Source of the DNA: Spirochaetes bacterium ADurb.Bin133
GTDB taxonomy: Bacteria; Spirochaetota; GWE2-31-10; MWDO01
Length of the DNA stretch: 64,000 nt
NCBI GenBank assembly: GCA_002070605.1
Contig: MWDO01000003.1
Span: 11,853-75,852 of the forward strand
Direction of reading: 5' to 3'
Part shown: positions 25,982 through 38,366 of the stretch, one piece after another
Layout: each line of letters opens with the position of its first letter
Position numbering within the stretch: the first letter of the stretch is position 1
Notes under the pieces: model-generated
Database searches by the model: none
What the model was told of the DNA's origin: nothing
Seen by the model: the letters and a program-made list of their open reading frames with translations, nothing else
Translations under genes and position numbers: made by a program

Positions 25982-27277
25982 TCATCTTTGCGCTTGTCCG
26001 AGCCCGGAATCAAGGAATTCTTCCAATCTTTCGGCGGATAGAGGCTTTGAAAAATAATATCCCTGTATTTCATCGCATCCCAAATTTTTTAAAAAATCAA
26101 CCTGATTTCTTGTTTCAGCTCCCTCGGCTGTAGTACATGCTTTGAAAGCCTTAGCCAATGAAACGACTATTTCAGCTACAGTAGCGTTTTTTCTTTCCAA
26201 GTTAATATTATCTATAATGCTTTTATCTATTTTGATTCTATCAAAAGGAATAGACTCCAACCGATGTAATGATGAATATCCTTTGCCGAAATCATCTATG
26301 GCGACGCTTATTCCCAATTTCTTCAATTTTGATATTTTTTCTATCGTATCCGGTAAATTCTCGGACAGAGCGCCTTCGGTGATTTCCAATTCAATATATT
26401 TCGGATCTACCCCGCTTTCTTTTATAATTTTTACAACGTCGTCTGCAAAATCGTCCCTTTGCAACTGTACAACCGATACGTTTATAGAGAAGCGAAGAGG
26501 CAAAAATCCCTTTGACGCAAGCCTATTGCGCTCTCGGAGCGACTGTTCCAACACCCACTTACCCACATTATGAATTAACCCCGTAGTTTCAAGTATGGGT
26601 ACAAATTTATCGGGTCCCACTTTCCTCCTGTCGTCAGGTTTCAATCTGAGCAAGACCTCAACCCCGGCAATTTTACCCGTATCGCAGCTAATTTGAGGCT
26701 GAAACTCTAGAAAGAATTCTTCTTTTTGCAACGATCTGAAAAGTCTGTTAGTAAGCAATGTGGTTTCGGCAATACGAGTCTTTATTTGTTCGGTATAGAA
26801 AGCGATTTTATTATCGGCAGTTTTGGCTTTATGTACCGCCAAATGAGCGTTTTCCAAAAGCGTATCCGCATCTTTTCCGTCTTCCGGATACAACGCTATA
26901 CCTACGCTGACAGTAACAAATAATGCTTCTATTTCTGTATCGATTAGTAGAGGATCGGAGAAGGAATCGATTACTTTTCTTGCCTGAATTTTTATCTGCT
27001 CATTATTTCCATGTTGGGGTAAAACGATAACAAACTCTCTTTCGCCTGTCCTTGAAATGTAAAGGCAATCCTCAAACAAATCATTGAGTATTTCTGCCGA
27101 TTTTATTATTACTTGCTCCCCGACTGCATGACCGAATGTATTATCAATCATCCAGATATTTTCTATTTCTACGTCTAAAATTGCTATTTTTTCTGTTTCT
27201 TCCATATTACACAGTATTTGCTCAAGGCCTTTTTTTAGCATATTTCTGTTGATAAATTTTGTAGCTTTTTTCGACAT
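25982..27277 (-). CDS. EAL-domain c-di-GMP phosphodiesterase with degenerate GGDEF domain
   Basis: GGDEF replaced by GEREF; E(V)L, INVS, ELEITE, DDFGKGYSS, IKIDKS, AEGAE and QGYYFSKP. Confidence 0.88.
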   Translation of the reverse strand: MSKKATKFINRNMLKKGLEQILCNMEETEKIAILDVEIENIWMIDNTFGHAVGEQVIIKSAEILNDLFEDCLYISRTGEREFVIVLPQHGNNEQIKIQARKVIDSFSDPLLIDTEIEALFVTVSVGIALYPEDGKDADTLLENAHLAVHKAKTADNKIAFYTEQIKTRIAETTLLTNRLFRSLQKEEFFLEFQPQISCDTGKIAGVEVLLRLKPDDRRKVGPDKFVPILETTGLIHNVGKWVLEQSLRERNRLASKGFLPLRFSINVSVVQLQRDDFADDVVKIIKESGVDPKYIELEITEGALSENLPDTIEKISKLKKLGISVAIDDFGKGYSSLHRLESIPFDRIKIDKSIIDNINLERKNATVAEIVVSLAKAFKACTTAEGAETRNQVDFLKNLGCDEIQGYYFSKPLSAERLEEFLDSGLGQAQR

Positions 27278-27380
27278 ACTTCCTTTTCCTTTCTAATCTA
27301 TTTTTTTACCGGTCGCGCAATCTGGTTTTTATAATTTGGTTTTGTTTCCATAAGGCGTTCTCCAAAAATATGCATAAGCA

Positions 27381-27435
27381 TTAGTTAGCCTGATCTAACT
27401 AGTATAGATTTTAATATTAATATTTTTTTTGTCAA
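27381..27435 (-). promoter_or_regulatory. sigma70 promoter plus TAGTTAG-N6-CTAACTA operator
   Basis: Minus-strand TTGACA-16-TAAAAT followed by a 7-6-7 inverted repeat similar to 7417-7436. Confidence 0.6.
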
Positions 27436-27459
27436 GTACTATTAGTTTTTACGCTGTAC

Positions 27460-27786
27460 CCTATCGGTTTTTTGGCGGGCGGAACAAAATTGACACATAT
27501 GATGTTGCGGAGAAAATTCGACGCATGTGGCGCTAAAGATAAAATTGACGCATGCGCGTTCAATTTTTATATGATAATTGCCGCGCGGCGCATATAGCTC
27601 CATATGCGTCGAATTTTCATCGGGGGACGCGGCGGCTATGAGACCCATATGCGTCGATTTTCCAAAAAATCGACGGACGGGGCGCGCGTCTCCGCTAAAT
27701 ACATTATATTAGTATATTCAAAACGGGAATTCCCGTTTTTTTATTAATAGCGTCCCATATGCGTCATTTTCCAAAAAACTGACGGG
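27460..27786. repeat. Composite modular repeat (MITE-like copy, palindrome module and second terminal motif)
   Basis: 27460-27676 is the reverse complement of 7172-7363 with one extra internal unit; then AAAACGGGAATTCCCGTTTT and CCAAAAAACTGACGGG (27771-27786). Confidence 0.9.
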
Positions 27787-27807
27787 CGCGGGTTAGCGCG
27801 TTTTTTC

Positions 27808-27836
27808 TTGACTTATAGCGCTATTAATAGTATTAT
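27808..27836 (+). promoter_or_regulatory. TA operon promoter
   Basis: TTGACT-17-TATTAT. Confidence 0.7.
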
Positions 27837-27864
27837 TAATAATATTATTATTTAAGGCAGGTAG

Positions 27865-28122
27865 ATGAGTATTTTAATAACCGCTAACGATTTAAAAACT
27901 AAAGGGGTATCGGCTTTTAACGACTTTGATAAAGACGATTCTGAGATTATCATAACGGTTAGAGGCAAGAGTAAATATGTCGTTTTACCGATCGAAAAGT
28001 ACAATTACCTTAGAGAATGCGAATTAGATACGGCTATTCGCGAATCTCAAGAAGATATTATTAATAACAGGTACATTATTGAAAGCGTTGAAAACCACAT
28101 AAAACGAATTAATAATGTATAA
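27865..28122 (+). CDS. Phd/YefM-family antitoxin
   Basis: ITANDLKTKG, IITVRGKSKYVVL; overlaps the toxin start. Confidence 0.85.
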   Translation: MSILITANDLKTKGVSAFNDFDKDDSEIIITVRGKSKYVVLPIEKYNYLRECELDTAIRESQEDIINNRYIIESVENHIKRINNV

Positions 28123-28390
28123 AATATTATTTACCGAAACTTATAATAAAAAAGCTGCAAATTTTATTAAAAAACATAAATCGCTGTTAAAACAATATGA
28201 AAAAACATTAAAACTGATGGAAATTGATCCTTTTCATCCATCTTTGAGGTTACACAAACTTGAAGGTAAGTTTCAAGAGGTATATTCCGTTTCCATAAAC
28301 ATATCGTATAGAATTACTATCGAGTTTATTATAAAAGAGAATATTATCATTCCTCTAGACGTTGGAACGCATAGCGAAATATATAAATAA
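28115..28390 (+). CDS. RelE/YoeB-superfamily mRNA interferase toxin
   Basis: DPFHPSLRLHKL.G, YSVSIN.SYRI and DVGTH.EIY. Confidence 0.85.
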   Translation: MYKILFTETYNKKAANFIKKHKSLLKQYEKTLKLMEIDPFHPSLRLHKLEGKFQEVYSVSINISYRITIEFIIKENIIIPLDVGTHSEIYK

Positions 28391-28408
28391 GAAGTTGTGT
28401 TATATTAT

Positions 28409-28470
28409 TATATTCAAAACGGGAATTCCCGTTTTTTTATTAATAGCGCCCCATAGATGTGTCAAATTTA
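28409..28470. repeat. Palindrome module and core unit of the repeat family
   Basis: 28409-28448 is identical (40/40) to 27713-27752; followed by a reverse GACACATCTATG unit. Confidence 0.9.
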
Positions 28471-28530
28471 TACGACAATTGTTTATTTTAAATTTTGACA
28501 TCGCCGTTATATTCTGTTATAAAATATTCA

Positions 28531-29814
28531 ATGAAGATAGAAAATTTTATCGCGCTCAGGTATATTATTCAGAACAGGAAAAACAGGGAGATAGCCTCTT
28601 CCTCCGTCGTCGTATGCGCGGCGATTGCCAGCGCGATAGTTTTTTTTATAGCGGCGGTGTCGATAATGAACGGATACATTCGGGGAAGGATGCAGATTCA
28701 GTTTGAAGTTACGTCGTTTCATCTTGCTTATTTTGATATAAACGAAAAGCGCGACGCCGATTTTATTGTCGATAAATTGAGCGGGGATAAGGAGGTTAAG
28801 AGCGTTTTTATCTATCGCGAAACCAAAGCGTTATTATCGGCTAACGGCGTTAACAGCGGATTGGTTTATTTTAGGGCGGTTCCGAGGGATATTTTCTCCT
28901 ACGACGAGGGGTTTGCGAATTATCTTAGGTTAGAGGGCAAGACTTCCCAAATCGGCGACGACGAGATAGTTCTTTCAAGGAAAACGGCGAGTAAGTTGAA
29001 GGTATCGACGGGGGAGTATATTTACCTGACGGCGATGGCTCTTGAGGATAAGGCTAAGATCAAATTCAAGCGGCTTAAGGTTGCCGATCTGTTTTCTACG
29101 GGATTTATCGAACTCGACGAGCAGATGTCTTATATCAATCTTGAGACTTGCGAGGAGATTTTCGGAAGAGACGTCGACTATTCGGTCGCCGTAAAATTGA
29201 ACGATTATAGAGATACGCTTAGTTTCGCCCGAAATCATAAATTTAACTCGTTTTCTTATCAATCGACGTGGATTGAGGAGAATTTCAACGAATTTACCGC
29301 TTTAAAGTTTGAAAAAAACGTTATAGCGTTTATCGTGCTTTTGGTCGTAATCGTCGCGGCTCTAAACGTCTTGACGGCGATACATATAGCGGTTTTGGAG
29401 AAAATCAAAGACGTGGGGATACTGAAGGCGACGGGCTATTCTCCGAGAAATATTATACTGATTTTTTTGTTGAACGGGTATTATATCGGTTTTATCGGAT
29501 TATTTATCGGCGTTTTTATCGGGCTTTTTGTTATGAGTAATCTCAATGAAATTATTGTCTTTTTCGGATATTTGATAGACTATTATCAAAACTTTATATA
29601 TACTATTTTAAAGAATTTTATCGATATTGCCCGTCCGGAGAATGTAGAAATATTTTCAAAGGATTTTTATCTTGATAAAATATACACGGATATCTCTTTT
29701 TGGGAGATAGCGCTCGTCGGATTTGTCGCGTTGCATTTTTCTCTGATAGCGGCTATTATCCCTTCCGTCAAGGCGGGGCGAGTTAAACCTTACGAGGTAA
29801 TTAGAAATGGTTGA
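28531..29814 (+). CDS. LolC/LolE-family lipoprotein-release ABC permease
   Basis: MacB/FtsX architecture, SIMNG, EK...GILKA.G; start moved to ATG 28531. Confidence 0.85.
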   Translation: MKIENFIALRYIIQNRKNREIASSSVVVCAAIASAIVFFIAAVSIMNGYIRGRMQIQFEVTSFHLAYFDINEKRDADFIVDKLSGDKEVKSVFIYRETKALLSANGVNSGLVYFRAVPRDIFSYDEGFANYLRLEGKTSQIGDDEIVLSRKTASKLKVSTGEYIYLTAMALEDKAKIKFKRLKVADLFSTGFIELDEQMSYINLETCEEIFGRDVDYSVAVKLNDYRDTLSFARNHKFNSFSYQSTWIEENFNEFTALKFEKNVIAFIVLLVVIVAALNVLTAIHIAVLEKIKDVGILKATGYSPRNIILIFLLNGYYIGFIGLFIGVFIGLFVMSNLNEIIVFFGYLIDYYQNFIYTILKNFIDIARPENVEIFSKDFYLDKIYTDISFWEIALVGFVALHFSLIAAIIPSVKAGRVKPYEVIRNG

Positions 29815-37499: not shown

Positions 37500-38366
37500 A
37501 TGAAAAGTTATCAATCGTATTCTAAAATAAATCTGTTTCTAAACGTAACCGGAAGGTATAAGAGCGGTTATCACTCTATAAAGAGTCTATTTTGCCGCGC
37601 TACGTTGTCGGATAGCATATCCTATTCTCTAAACGATACAAATAAAATCAAAATTATAGACAAAAAAAATATATTGCCGGAGAATAATCTTTTAAAAACG
37701 GCGGCAGATAAAATTATTTCGAGTTTGAACGGTAGAATTCCTTTTGGCATAGATTTTACAGTCGAGAAAAAAATACCTATAGGCGGCGGGCTTGGCGGCG
37801 GCTCTTCTAACGCCGCTTCCGTTTTAAAAATTTTAAATAAAGAGTGGCGGCTAAATTTCGGGGTTGAAAAATTAAAAAAAATCGCGCGACAAATCGGAGC
37901 GGACGTCCCCTTTTTTATCGAGGGGGGGACGCAAAAAGTTTTCGGCGTCGGGGAGATAGTCAAATCAATAAAAACGGGAATTCCCGTTTTTTATTTAATT
38001 CTGGTTTTCCCGGAAATTCAGGTATCCACTCCCGCCGCTTATAAATTGATTGACGACAATAATATGGCTTGCGAATCTTACGAAGAACGAAAAATGTTTA
38101 AAAAATTAATCGAAGGGTACCGCTCTAACGATTACAAAAAAATAATTTCTAATGTTTATAATAAATTTGAATATCCCGTATTTGCTCAAAACAAAATATT
38201 ATCTGATATAAAAAACGACGTTCTTGACAGCGGAGCCGACGCGTCGGTTATGTCTGGATCCGGCTCGACGATAATCGGCATATACGAGACTTATGAAAAA
38301 AGAAAAACGGGAATCGAGCGTTTACAATCTTACGGATATAACGTCGAGCCGGTAGAAATATTTTAG
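37500..38366 (+). CDS. ispE: 4-diphosphocytidyl-2-C-methyl-D-erythritol kinase
   Basis: KINLFL, GYHSI, KKIPIGGGLGGGSSNAA, GADVPFF and MSGSGST. Confidence 0.95.
   Translation: MKSYQSYSKINLFLNVTGRYKSGYHSIKSLFCRATLSDSISYSLNDTNKIKIIDKKNILPENNLLKTAADKIISSLNGRIPFGIDFTVEKKIPIGGGLGGGSSNAASVLKILNKEWRLNFGVEKLKKIARQIGADVPFFIEGGTQKVFGVGEIVKSIKTGIPVFYLILVFPEIQVSTPAAYKLIDDNNMACESYEERKMFKKLIEGYRSNDYKKIISNVYNKFEYPVFAQNKILSDIKNDVLDSGADASVMSGSGSTIIGIYETYEKRKTGIERLQSYGYNVEPVEIF
37970..37991. repeat. Repeat-family palindrome inside ispE
   Basis: AAAAACGGGAATTCCCGTTTTT (22-bp perfect palindrome) encoding KTGIPVF. Confidence 0.85.

What the first reader, a model, noticed from the sequence alone, without database searches (positions are those of the whole stretch)
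27713..28448. Phd/RelE TA module bracketed by an exact 40-bp direct repeat centred on a palindrome
Seen: TATATTCAAAACGGGAATTCCCGTTTTTTTATTAATAGCG is identical at 27713-27752 and 28409-28448, flanking promoter, antitoxin and toxin. This is the footprint expected if a ~700-bp circle integrated at, or can excise through, this site. The perfect identity suggests a recent event. Inference: the palindrome may be the recombination site of the system.
Basis: partly seen in the sequence, partly recalled or inferred. Interest (0 to 1): 0.62.

Follow-up and report, generated by a model that had tools for sequence, protein, structure and literature searches.

The report
Toxin-antitoxin cassette between genome-wide palindrome repeats
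The exact 40-bp repeat around this toxin-antitoxin pair is real, but it is two sister copies of a terminator-like palindrome present about 100 times in this uncultured digester spirochaete. The gene pair has changed position between related species next to such repeats, most likely by ordinary recombination rather than through a dedicated integration site.

Summary
Observation confirmed. The 40-mer is exact at 27713-27752 and 28409-28448, and extends to 56 nt with 2 mismatches. It brackets a promoter, a Phd-like antitoxin and a YafQ/RelE-like toxin.

Interpretation partly supported. The palindrome is not private to this locus. Its core, AAAACGGGAATTCCCGTTTT, occurs 32 times exactly and 121 times with up to 3 mismatches in the 2.99-Mb genome. 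The family is abundant in the congener and absent from 18 other genomes of the family and order. It forms part of a modular MITE/BOX-like repeat system.

At least 14 toxin-antitoxin loci lie within 450 nt of a copy, and several are bracketed the same way. In the congener the orthologous module (89% nt identity) sits at a different locus, again between two copies, while its lolC/E site holds one copy and no module. A conspecific strain (98.9% identity) has neither module nor palindrome there.

Variation breakpoints lie 10-100 nt from the palindrome, not at a fixed base. Bracketing repeats range from 40 to 333 bp, module orientation varies, and no integron integrase, RAYT or dif-like site is present.

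Best reading: a repeat-bounded cassette moved by recombination between dispersed repeats, which also act as terminators. Interest is modest.

The parts
25982..27277 (-). GGDEF-EAL gene, the left neighbour, divergent from the TA module
   Evidence: Pfam EAL E=6e-65 and GGDEF E=2.4e-24. It has no DNA match in congener G001.
27457..27682 (.). Copy of the genome's modular MITE-like repeat. It is built of 'M3' units (CATATG(C/T)GTCAATTTT...) between ends of the type CCC..CGGTTTTTTGG / CCAAAAAA.CGACGG.
   Evidence: Sequence. Internal repeats D2, D13, I2 and I8. The M3 motif occurs at least 558 times in the genome, often as 47-nt tandem arrays.
27704..27759 (+). Repeat copy 1 (R1). It consists of a left arm TTATATTAGTATATTC, a palindrome core at 27720-27739, then TTTATTAATAGCGT and CCCATA. 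The exact 40-mer is 27713-27752.
   Evidence: It scores as a + strand terminator-like hairpin, with an 8-bp stem, 4-nt loop and T-rich tail. RNA fold energy is -15.2 kcal/mol, z=-3.0.
27754..27791 (+). M3 head plus end module (CCCATATGCGTCATTTTCCAAAAAACTGACGGGCGCGG). Together with R1 it forms an ~88-nt composite that recurs elsewhere, including upstream of a ParE cassette on contig C6.
   Evidence: The 89-nt query matched C6:2508-2603 (79%) and C42:6973-7060 (80%) over nearly its full length. Direct repeat D4.
27808..27850 (+). TA promoter (TTGACT-17-TATTAT, 27808-27836) overlapping AT-rich palindromes (GCGCTATTAATAGTATTATTAATAATATTA) that probably form the operator
   Evidence: D5, I5. The 12-mer GCGCTATTAATA occurs only 3 times in the genome. 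Two of these are here: 27818-27829 on the + strand and 28438-28449 on the - strand.
27865..28122 (+). Antitoxin, 85 aa, Phd/YefM family
   Evidence: TIGR01552 scored 21.6 bits against a cut-off of 20.8. Pfam PF02604 gave E=3e-5, below the gathering score.
28115..28390 (+). Toxin, 91 aa, RelE superfamily (YafQ/YoeB/RelE-like). Its start overlaps the end of the antitoxin gene by 8 nt.
   Evidence: PF15738 YafQ E=4.6e-6; TIGR00053, TIGR02116 and TIGR02385 all scored below their cut-offs. Weak PDB matches to the Helicobacter HP0894 protein (1z8m), two chains deposited as 'Uncharacterized protein, Toxin' (4ls4, 4ltt) and YoeB (7v6w).
28400..28455 (+). Repeat copy 2 (R2), starting 10 nt after the toxin stop codon. 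The palindrome core is at 28416-28435 and the exact 40-mer at 28409-28448. It probably terminates the TA operon and insulates lolC/E.
28450..28486 (+). Variant M3 unit (CCCATAGATGTGTCAAATTTATA) followed by the half-site CGACAATTG. High-identity homology to the conspecific strain and to G001 starts at about 28478.
   Evidence: Sequence comparison.
28531..29814 (+). LolC/E-type FtsX permease, the right neighbour. The ATG at 28531 corresponds to the 427-aa gene call.
   Evidence: PF02687 E=2e-13. Gene calls on public contigs.

Best explanation
The 40-bp (56-bp) direct repeat is a pair of sister copies of a genus-specific dispersed palindromic repeat, called M1 here. M1 has a left arm ..TTAGTATATTC and a core AAAACGGGAATTCCCGTTTT. 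It occurs about 100 times in the genome and is one module of a mosaic MITE/BOX-like repeat family.

Shown:
- Each copy can fold into an 8-bp-stem hairpin followed by a T-run. Copy 2 lies 10 nt after the toxin stop codon.
- The Phd-RelE-like module, with its own promoter and the repeat that follows it, is a discrete cassette. It occupies different loci in two congeners and is absent from this site in a conspecific strain.
- Many other TA modules in both species are bracketed by M1 copies.
- Adjacent copies are more alike than distant ones.

Inferred:
- Cassettes are gained, lost and relocated by recombination between dispersed repeat copies. This is homology-driven, with some illegitimate events, and could proceed through a looped-out circle or incoming DNA pairing at a resident copy. 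Such an event duplicates the repeat and yields the bracket.
- Local gene conversion may keep the 40 nt identical.
- The repeats also act as transcription terminators and insulators, so a TA operon is tolerated between unrelated genes.
- The addictive TA would penalise loss through repeat-repeat deletion.

No dedicated integrase or att site is involved.
For: - The family is real and genus-restricted. The core occurs 32 times exactly, 105 times with up to 2 mismatches and 121 times with up to 3. The pattern with the TATTC flank occurs 102 times in the own genome and 40 times in congener G001. It is absent from 18 other genomes of the family and order, and the reversed control pattern gave 0.
- R1 and R2 are reciprocal nearest neighbours: 8 mismatches in 64 nt, against 17-18 for the next best copy. 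They belong to a 4-copy subvariant, CCGTTTTTTTATTAATA.
- Adjacent direct pairs across the genome are more alike than non-adjacent pairs. Mean distance is 22 against 35 mismatches in 84 nt, and none of 20,000 resamples reached the observed mean.
- The bracketing recurs in the own genome: ParE on C6 (spacing 699 nt); DUF5615+DUF433, ParE and PIN_2 on C45; antitoxin+ParE on C54; ParE-like on C61; ParE/RelB on C3; and HipA inside a 333-bp exact direct repeat on C6. HicAB and HepT are adjacent to a copy.
- ParE loci lie within 450 nt of M1 in 4 of 12 cases, against a 6.4% background (p=0.005).
- In the congener the TA block is 88.9% identical, the same as flanking housekeeping DNA (86-88%). It sits in a TA islet upstream of the oxidoreductase gene, with M1 after each of three modules. 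A second G001 locus holds M1, then ParE with an RHH antitoxin, then M1. At the same site the own genome has a different insert plus a ~45-nt stretch matching inside the G001 toxin ORF, which I read as a relic.
- G001 lolC/E has one M1 and no TA.
- Both copies score as + strand terminators.
- Of 15 sampled G001 M1 sites with a mappable flank, only 3 had both flanks mapping in the own genome. This suggests M1 often borders variable DNA, but there was no control.
Against: - No excision product, empty site with a single 40-mer, or circle junction was observed. All conspecific TA-bearing contigs are identical at the junctions, so the locus looks stable.
- Homology-driven exchange is inferred from variable repeat lengths and scattered breakpoints. 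It is not demonstrated.
- 40-56 bp is near the lower limit for efficient RecA recombination (own knowledge).
- The greater similarity of adjacent copies could come from gene conversion alone.
- The left-flank history is unresolved. The EAL gene is absent from G001, and scpB, which neighbours lolC/E in G001, is elsewhere in the own genome.
- Terminator function rests on a consensus scan only. Across the family, oriented copies are not tied to gene 3' ends: 44 face away from the upstream gene and 29 face into it.
Confidence: 0.5

Rival explanations
1. The palindrome is a site-specific recombination site, and the ~700-bp TA unit integrates and excises as a circle through it. A trans-acting tyrosine recombinase would catalyse this, either XerC/D or the XerA-like protein on contig C69. 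The system would be analogous to integron cassettes or Acinetobacter dif modules.
For: - Exact direct repeat centred on a perfect palindrome that can be read as 11-6-11 (ATTCAAAACGG GAATTC CCGTTTTGAAT).
- The M1-TA-M1 architecture recurs in two species.
- The G001 islet has gene(s)+M1 units all in one orientation.
- Family members share the left arm and core but have many different right flanks, as expected if exchange occurs at the core.
- The genome encodes two Xer-like recombinases and a 372-aa XerA/'integron integrase'-like protein just under its cut-off (214.7 against 220 bits).
Against: - No IntI. TIGR02249 scored 198 bits against a cut-off of 265, and HMM positions 180-230 are not matched by either stretch (the recombinase has about 8 residues where the model has about 50).
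- No M1 lies near any recombinase gene.
- M1 has no GTTRRRY/RYYYAAC boxes and no bulged bases. It does not resemble the candidate chromosomal dif site at C68:4838.
- Cassettes carry their own promoters and lie in either orientation relative to M1.
- Bracketing repeats vary from 40 to 333 bp.
- Interspecies and interstrain breakpoints lie 10-100 nt from the core rather than at a fixed base.
- One bracketed TA was lost by a deletion ending inside the toxin gene.
- M1 also flanks ordinary genes, and bare cores lie inside 21 real genes.
Confidence: 0.15
2. The bracket has nothing to do with TA mobility. Copies of a mobile palindrome/MITE family inserted independently, or hopped locally, into the permissive spacers on both sides of a resident TA module. 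The 40-nt identity reflects recent transposition or local gene conversion.
For: - The family shows recent bursts. Several unlinked copies are identical or within 2 mismatches over 64 nt.
- About half of the sampled G001 sites with a mappable flank have no orthologous M1 in the own genome (8 of 15).
- MITE-type modules fill the EAL-TA spacer.
- M1 copies lie in promoter regions as often as after genes.
Against: - R1 and R2 belong to a 4-copy subvariant and are each other's closest relatives, which is unlikely for two independent insertions.
- The TA block itself is at non-orthologous loci in the two species while keeping an M1 with a similar right flank (TTTTTTcTTAATAGaGC) downstream.
- The enrichment of TA modules next to M1 needs an extra assumption of target preference or selection.
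Confidence: 0.2
3. The repeats are primarily functional transcription terminators and insulators. They are retained by selection around TA operons to prevent read-through into or out of an autoregulated addiction module. Sequence identity is maintained by concerted evolution, and the relocation of TA modules is unrelated.
For: - Both copies meet the hairpin-plus-T-run criterion on the TA strand, and R2 starts 10 nt after the stop codon.
- The full palindromic form is a very stable hairpin, -27 kcal/mol with z=-10, flanked by A and T runs, so it could act in both directions.
- An operator-like 11-12-mer from the TA promoter recurs, inverted, in both repeat flanks.
Against: - Across the family, oriented copies are not preferentially downstream of genes.
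- Selection for termination does not explain identical 40-64-nt sequences at about 100 loci restricted to one genus.
- It does not explain why M1 marks synteny breaks.
- No transcript data were available.
Confidence: 0.1

Closest known systems
REP/BIME mosaics and modular MITE-like repeats (BOX elements of Streptococcus pneumoniae, Correia elements of Neisseria), as reviewed in PMC3184786
   Same: Short extragenic palindromes and modular units occur in about 100 to several hundred copies. They are restricted to one lineage and mix in mosaic combinations. They can form stem-loops that may terminate transcription, and they sit at variable regions and rearrangement breakpoints.
   Different: No RAYT (REP-associated Y1 transposase) is present; the only Y1_Tnp hit is a domain inside a 1132-aa restriction-modification-type protein. 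The core is a perfect AT-flanked palindrome containing GAATTC. There is a marked association with TA modules. The family itself is undescribed.
Acinetobacter dif (pdif) modules: accessory genes, often TA pairs, bounded by XerC/D sites on plasmids (PMC6449649, PMC13141974)
   Same: Small modules without their own recombinase, frequently TA systems, are bounded by copies of a short palindromic site and shuffled between locations.
   Different: pdif sites resemble the chromosomal dif site and alternate in orientation. M1 does not resemble the candidate dif site, its flanking copies are direct, the modules are chromosomal, and breakpoints are not at a fixed position.
Integron gene cassettes, including the TA cassettes of chromosomal superintegrons (own knowledge: Vibrio superintegrons; Treponema denticola integron)
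   Same: Arrays of small gene units are each followed by an imperfectly conserved palindromic repeat, and TA pairs are common cargo. The G001 islet looks like such an array.
   Different: There is no intI, no attC signature (R''/R' boxes, extrahelical bases) and no common Pc promoter. Cassettes carry their own promoters and lie in either orientation. The repeats are dispersed over at least 50 contigs rather than forming one array.
Passenger DNA mobilised between two miniature elements, such as Tn3-derived TIMEs generating mosaic non-autonomous transposons (PMC4133298), mobile insertion cassettes and MITE-bounded integron mobilisation units
   Same: A short cargo lies between two copies of a non-autonomous repeat of the same subfamily.
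   Different: The two copies are direct rather than inverted, and the right-hand copy lacks the end module. No target-site duplication or cognate transposase was identified.

Membership tests
Integron gene cassette / attC | An integron integrase (IntI, with the IntI-specific extra domain) is encoded in the genome or adjacent to the array | tested here: not met
   The best TIGR02249 match is C69:9681-10799, at 198.5 bits against a cut-off of 265. HMM positions 180-230 are not matched by either stretch. The best model overall is XerA-like NF040815, at 214.7 against 220 bits. No M1 copy is on that contig.
Integron gene cassette / attC | attC architecture: R''(RYYYAAC)-L''...L'-R'(GTTRRRY), an imperfect palindrome with extrahelical bases | tested here: not met
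   The sequence was read directly. The palindrome is a perfect 20-nt unit, up to 42-52 nt in some copies, with no GTTRRRY or RYYYAAC boxes and no bulges (fold).
Integron gene cassette / attC | Mostly promoterless cassettes in one orientation relative to the site | tested here: not met
   The TA module has its own TTGACT-17-TATTAT promoter. TA modules on C45 and in L094 lie antisense to the M1 left-arm orientation.
dif / pdif module (Xer-dependent) | A 28-bp site with 11-bp XerC and XerD arms resembling the host chromosomal dif site | tested here: not met
   M1 can be parsed as 11-6-11, but its arms (ATTCAAAACGG) are unlike the dif-like candidates found in the genome (C68:4838 GATAATATATATTATGTAAAAT; C8:11893).
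dif / pdif module (Xer-dependent) | Flanking sites in alternating (inverted) orientation | tested here: inconclusive
   The flanks make R1 and R2 direct repeats. The core itself is a perfect palindrome, so the orientation of a hypothetical core site is undefined.
MITE | Short, non-coding, multi-copy element with terminal inverted repeats | tested here: met
   92 copies carry conserved arms. 11 are full palindromes, TTAGTATATTC-core-GAATATACTAA. The family is genus-restricted.
MITE | Target-site duplications and presence/absence polymorphism at orthologous sites | tested here: inconclusive
   Of 15 sampled G001 M1 sites with a mappable flank, 7 have an M1 at the orthologous place in the own genome and 8 do not. 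Target-site duplications were not resolved.
REP/BIME with RAYT | A cognate REP-associated Y1 transposase gene flanked by the repeats | tested here: not met
   The only PF01797 hit is a domain inside a 1132-aa restriction-modification-type ORF (C2:34334-37732).
Rho-independent terminator | GC-containing stem-loop followed by a U-run, placed after a gene | tested here: met
   Both copies pass the consensus scan, with an 8-bp stem, 4 GC pairs, a 4-nt loop and the tail TTTATTAATA. R2 starts 10 nt after the toxin stop codon. Function was not tested, and across the family placement is not tied to gene ends.
Type II TA, Phd/YefM antitoxin with RelE-superfamily toxin | Profile matches to both families and the antitoxin-first overlapping two-gene operon | tested here: met
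   The antitoxin passes TIGR01552 (21.6 against 20.8 bits). The toxin matches YafQ, YoeB and RelE models only below their cut-offs (E about 1e-5), with weak PDB hits to 1z8m, 4ls4 and 7v6w. The genes overlap by 8 nt. Toxicity was not tested.

The most novel reading that the evidence does not exclude
The M1 palindrome may be the recombination site of an integrase-free, genus-wide cassette-exchange system. A host tyrosine recombinase (XerC/D or the XerA/'integron-integrase'-like protein on contig C69) would act on the 11-6-11 palindrome ATTCAAAACGG-GAATTC-CCGTTTTGAAT. It would capture and shuffle small operons, chiefly toxin-antitoxin pairs, around the chromosome. This would be a chromosomal spirochaete analogue of Acinetobacter dif modules, with a site that doubles as a bidirectional terminator.
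Probability: 0.12. Interest if true: 0.7.

Novelty: new member of a known kind. Interest (0 to 1): 0.33.

Why it matters
If the best reading holds, this locus is a clear small example of how dispersed terminator-like palindromes organise the accessory genome of an uncultured anaerobic-digester spirochaete. TA modules sit as insulated cassettes between repeat copies, and they are reshuffled at those repeats between species and strains. That helps in annotating these MAGs, because contig breaks, synteny breaks and TA islets coincide with the repeats. It also gives a concrete substrate (R1-TA-R2, 0.75 kb) for testing whether short dispersed repeats alone suffice for cassette exchange. The result does not reveal a new mechanism. 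The repeat family is undescribed, but it is of a familiar kind.

Tried and rejected
- TA-toxin scan of metagenome contigs: one distant relative only, with no M1.
- Viral-contig scan for M1: 0 hits.
- Searching the genome of the TA-less conspecific strain through its locus handle: not held.
- Integron hypothesis: rejected on the integrase, attC and orientation tests.
- RAYT/REP hypothesis: rejected.
- dif/pdif hypothesis: rejected on site similarity.
- Rfam: no family match in 27250-28650. Only two chance-level hits appeared.
- 'Pure terminator' reading of the family: weakened, because oriented copies are not tied to gene 3' ends.
- Gene caller: my first crude caller placed many copies 'inside' ORFs. 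Those ORFs were short spurious frames over repeats, and they were removed.
- Reconstructing the full history of the EAL-lolC/E spacer: abandoned, because three different states (window, conspecific strain, G001) share only the lolC/E-proximal ~50 nt.
Full report
**Observation.** The 40-mer TATATTCAAAACGGGAATTCCCGTTTTTTTATTAATAGCG is present exactly twice in the window, at 27713-27752 and 28409-28448. No match appeared in 100 shuffles. The direct repeat extends to 56 nt (27704-27759 and 28400-28455) with two mismatches and a spacing of 696 nt.

Between the copies lie:
- a sigma-70-like promoter, TTGACT-17-TATTAT, at 27808-27836;
- an 85-aa antitoxin at 27865-28122, which passes TIGR01552 phd_fam at 21.6 against 20.8 bits (Pfam PhdYeFM E=3e-5);
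- a 91-aa toxin at 28115-28390 that overlaps the antitoxin gene by 8 nt. It matches YafQ, YoeB and RelE models at E about 1e-5, below their cut-offs, and has weak PDB matches to 1z8m, 4ls4 and 7v6w.

The neighbours are a GGDEF-EAL gene on the minus strand and lolC/E-lolD. The toxin look-up found 22 public contigs with the identical protein; of the ten contexts shown, those that reach the neighbours have the same ileS-EAL-TA-lolCE arrangement. These come from at least ten metagenomes or MAGs, and both 40-mers are intact in the contigs whose junction was printed. The structure is therefore real and stable within this strain lineage.

**The repeat is not private to the locus.** In the window's own assembly (2.99 Mb, 103 contigs, 37% GC) the palindrome core AAAACGGGAATTCCCGTTTT occurs 32 times exactly, 105 times with up to 2 mismatches and 121 times with up to 3. 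CGGGAATTCCCG occurs 85 times against 0.04 expected.
- 92 copies carry a conserved arm: TTAGTATATTC on one side, or on both sides in 11 fully palindromic copies that fold at -27 kcal/mol.
- The remaining bare cores include 21 inside long, evidently real ORFs.
- The family is restricted to the genus. There are 102 pattern matches in this genome and 40 in the same-genus genome G001. None were found in 18 other genomes of the family and order, and none for the reversed control pattern.
- The organism is an uncultured 'Spirochaetes bacterium' from anaerobic digesters.

I call this element M1. About half of the oriented copies belong to a longer conserved composite: GATAAGGTCCCGGyATGAAGG..TTTAGTATTTTAGTATATTC, then the core, then TATCGGGGCGCGACAATTGTCGC, then TTGACACATATG units. 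The TTGACACATATG 'M3' units occur at least 558 times, often as 47-nt tandem arrays, and the CGACAATTGTCG palindrome is matched 254 times over both strands, so about 127 sites. M1 is therefore one module of a mosaic MITE/BOX-like repeat system. This agrees with notes from earlier agents on other windows of this genome, which I treated as leads only.

**Anatomy of this locus.** The 587-nt EAL-TA spacer consists of the following, in order:
1. a MITE-type copy at 27457-27682;
2. 21 nt of other sequence;
3. R1 (M1 plus TTTATTAATAGCGT);
4. an M3 head with an end module at 27754-27791.

R1 together with that M3 head and end module forms an ~88-nt composite that recurs nearly full-length at C6:2508-2603 and at C42:6973-7060. 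The C6 copy lies directly upstream of a ParE cassette. R2 starts 10 nt after the toxin stop codon and is followed by a variant M3 unit and CGACAATTG.

Both copies score as + strand terminator-like hairpins, with an 8-bp stem, 4 GC pairs, a 4-nt loop and a T-rich tail.

The part of the 40-mer to the right of the palindrome (TATTAATAGCG) is an inverted copy of the operator-like motif in the TA promoter. GCGCTATTAATA occurs only three times in the genome, and two of those are at this locus. The subvariant CCGTTTTTTTATTAATA has only four copies: R1, R2 and two on contig C55. R1 and R2 are reciprocal nearest neighbours, with 8 mismatches in 64 nt against 17-18 for the next best copy. Perfect identity is not special in this family, however. 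Several unlinked copies are identical over 64 nt.

**Recurrence.** Other pairs of M1 copies bracket TA modules in the own genome:
- C6:1870/2569, spacing 699 nt, ParE plus a small antitoxin;
- C45:12855/13738, DUF5615 PIN-like plus DUF433;
- C45:13738/15357, ParE and PIN_2;
- C54:4226/5206, antitoxin plus ParE;
- C61:13732/14867, ParE-like;
- window 44279/46161/47346, ParE/RelB and DUF5615;
- C6:25768-26100 and 28150-28482, a 333-bp exact direct repeat around a HipA module.

HicAB and HepT also lie next to copies. ParE loci are within 450 nt of M1 in 4 of 12 cases, against 6.4% of all genes (p=0.005).

Ordinary genes are bracketed too, including GNAT, histidine kinase, RNase T and PLD genes. 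Oriented copies have no consistent relation to gene ends: 44 face away from the upstream gene and 29 face into it. Adjacent direct pairs are significantly more alike than non-adjacent pairs. Mean distance is 22 against 35 mismatches in 84 nt, and none of 20,000 resamples reached that value.

**Comparative evidence.**
1. *Congener G001, lolC/E site.* Housekeeping flanks are 86-88% identical in nucleotide sequence. The lolC/E locus (L015) has one M1 copy, 37/37 identical to the left arm and core, and no TA. Its upstream gene is scpB rather than EAL. In the own genome the scpB cluster lies on contig C12.
2. *Congener G001, TA module.* The module exists in G001 at 88.9% identity, and the match covers exactly window 27790-28390. 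It lies upstream of an aldehyde-ferredoxin-oxidoreductase gene, inside a TA islet arranged as [48 aa+PIN]-M1-[70 aa]-[79+82 aa, weakly HigB-like]-M1-[this TA]-M1. All M1 copies there share one orientation. The downstream copy has a right flank like ours, TTTTTTcTTAATAGaGC. In the own genome that oxidoreductase gene is preceded by a lipoprotein gene, with no M1 and no TA.
3. *Conspecific strain.* It is 98.9% identical over 6.5 kb (L061-L064, for example GCA_035425405.1). It has neither TA nor palindrome upstream of lolC/E. Instead it has the end of a high-copy IS-like element followed by two M3 units. High-identity homology resumes at about 28478, roughly 30 nt to the right of the 40-mer.
4. 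*A second G001 locus (L094).* This holds M1, then ParE with an RHH antitoxin on the opposite strand, then M1, between two conserved genes. At the same site the own genome has a different insert plus a ~45-nt stretch matching inside the G001 toxin ORF, which I read as a relic, and no M1. Under that reading the loss was not a precise excision.
5. *Sampled G001 M1 sites.* Homology to the own genome ends 10-100 nt from the core, or inside it, without a fixed position. Only 3 of 15 mappable sites had both flanks mapping. Seven of 15 have an orthologous M1. No random-site control was run.

**Mechanism.** Three things are shown:
- The TA block is a discrete unit that occupies different loci in two congeners.
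- It has repeat copies at its borders in both species.
- Its divergence equals the genome average, which indicates vertical descent plus relocation within the genome.

Recombination between dispersed repeat copies is inferred as the cause of the relocation and of the bracketing duplication. I favour homology-driven or illegitimate exchange over a dedicated site-specific system for these reasons:
- bracketing repeats range from 40 to 333 bp;
- breakpoints are scattered;
- module orientation relative to M1 varies;
- cassettes carry their own promoters;
- no IntI or RAYT is present, and M1 does not resemble a dif site.

The hairpin-plus-T-run structure makes termination and insulation a plausible second role. 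From established knowledge of chromosomal TA cassettes, loss of the module by repeat-repeat deletion would be counter-selected by the toxin.

The site-specific reading is not excluded. The core can be parsed as 11-6-11, the left arm and core combine with many right flanks, and a XerA/'integron-integrase'-like recombinase exists on C69.

**Comparison and novelty.**
- The closest known kinds are REP/BIME and modular MITE-like repeats (PMC3184786).
- In behaviour it resembles Acinetobacter dif modules (PMC6449649, PMC13141974), integron TA cassettes, and passenger DNA mobilised between two miniature elements (PMC4133298).
- The defining features of integrons, pdif modules and RAYT-REP systems were tested and not met.
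- The repeat family is undescribed, but the phenomenon is a new member of a known kind.
- Interest is modest at 0.33.
- The most novel reading still open is an integrase-free, Xer-like cassette-exchange system. I give it a probability of about 0.12.

Noticed in passing
own genome contig C6:25768-26100 and 28150-28482 (outside the window): A 333-bp exact direct repeat containing an M1 copy brackets a 2.4-kb unit that encodes a HipA-like toxin kinase (PF07804, E=1.6e-39). This is a larger analogue of the finding. It could also be an assembly duplication.
   Followed up: partly
window 37971-37990 (ispE) and 20 further sites in the own genome: The bare 20-nt palindrome core, without arms, lies inside long, evidently real ORFs 21 times, for example in a 289-aa IspE-like ORF where it encodes KTGIPVF. 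Chance expectation is essentially zero. Whether these are in-frame insertions was not examined.
   Followed up: partly
L061:1-235; own genome C39:1-993 and the ends of at least 30 contigs: A high-copy IS-like element breaks the assembly at many contig ends. The 3' end of its transposase gene is visible at C39:1-383 and looked DDE/rve-like by eye; it was not scanned. Its terminus abuts M3 units (…TTACCTTAGCAT|CATATG…), which suggests the IS targets these repeats.
   Followed up: no
own genome, e.g. C13:23647-24204, C26:37582-38025, C66:12390-12894: Tandem arrays of a 47-nt unit (CATATGTGTCAATTTTyCwTCGGGGAGCGGCGCGGCGCATATAGCTC). The motif CATATG[CT]GTC[AG]A[AT]TTT occurs 558 times in 3 Mb.
   Followed up: partly
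own genome C2:34334-37732 (-): A 1132-aa protein that read like a type IIG restriction-modification enzyme by eye (not scanned) carries an internal Y1_Tnp (HUH transposase-like) domain (PF01797, E=5.5e-14). It is the only Y1 domain in the genome.
   Followed up: no
own genome C69:9681-10799 (+): A 372-aa tyrosine recombinase with a ~100-aa N-terminal extension scores just under the cut-off of NF040815 (XerA / 'integron integrase', 214.7 against 220 bits). It scores well above the genome's XerC/D homologues on the IntI model, but no stretch matches IntI model positions 180-230. No M1 copy is on that contig.
   Followed up: partly
window 27818-27829 (+), 27742-27752 and 28438-28449 (-): The operator-like motif of the TA promoter, (G)CGCTATTAATA, recurs inverted in the right flank of both repeat copies. 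The 12-mer occurs only 3 times in the genome. These may be extra antitoxin binding sites, or a trace of how the repeat variant arose.
   Followed up: partly
L074:2622-2665 (congener G001, upstream of its TA copy): A perfect 44-nt palindrome, CATAGCCAATAGAACCCGAATTAATTCGGGTTCTATTGGCTATG, occupies the position where the window has an M3 end module. Several different palindromes therefore occupy the M1-to-TA junction.
   Followed up: no
L082-L101 (20 loci around G001 M1 copies): In 12 of 15 G001 M1 sites with a mappable flank, only one flank has a homologue in the own genome. This suggests M1 commonly borders species-specific DNA. No random-site control was run.
   Followed up: partly
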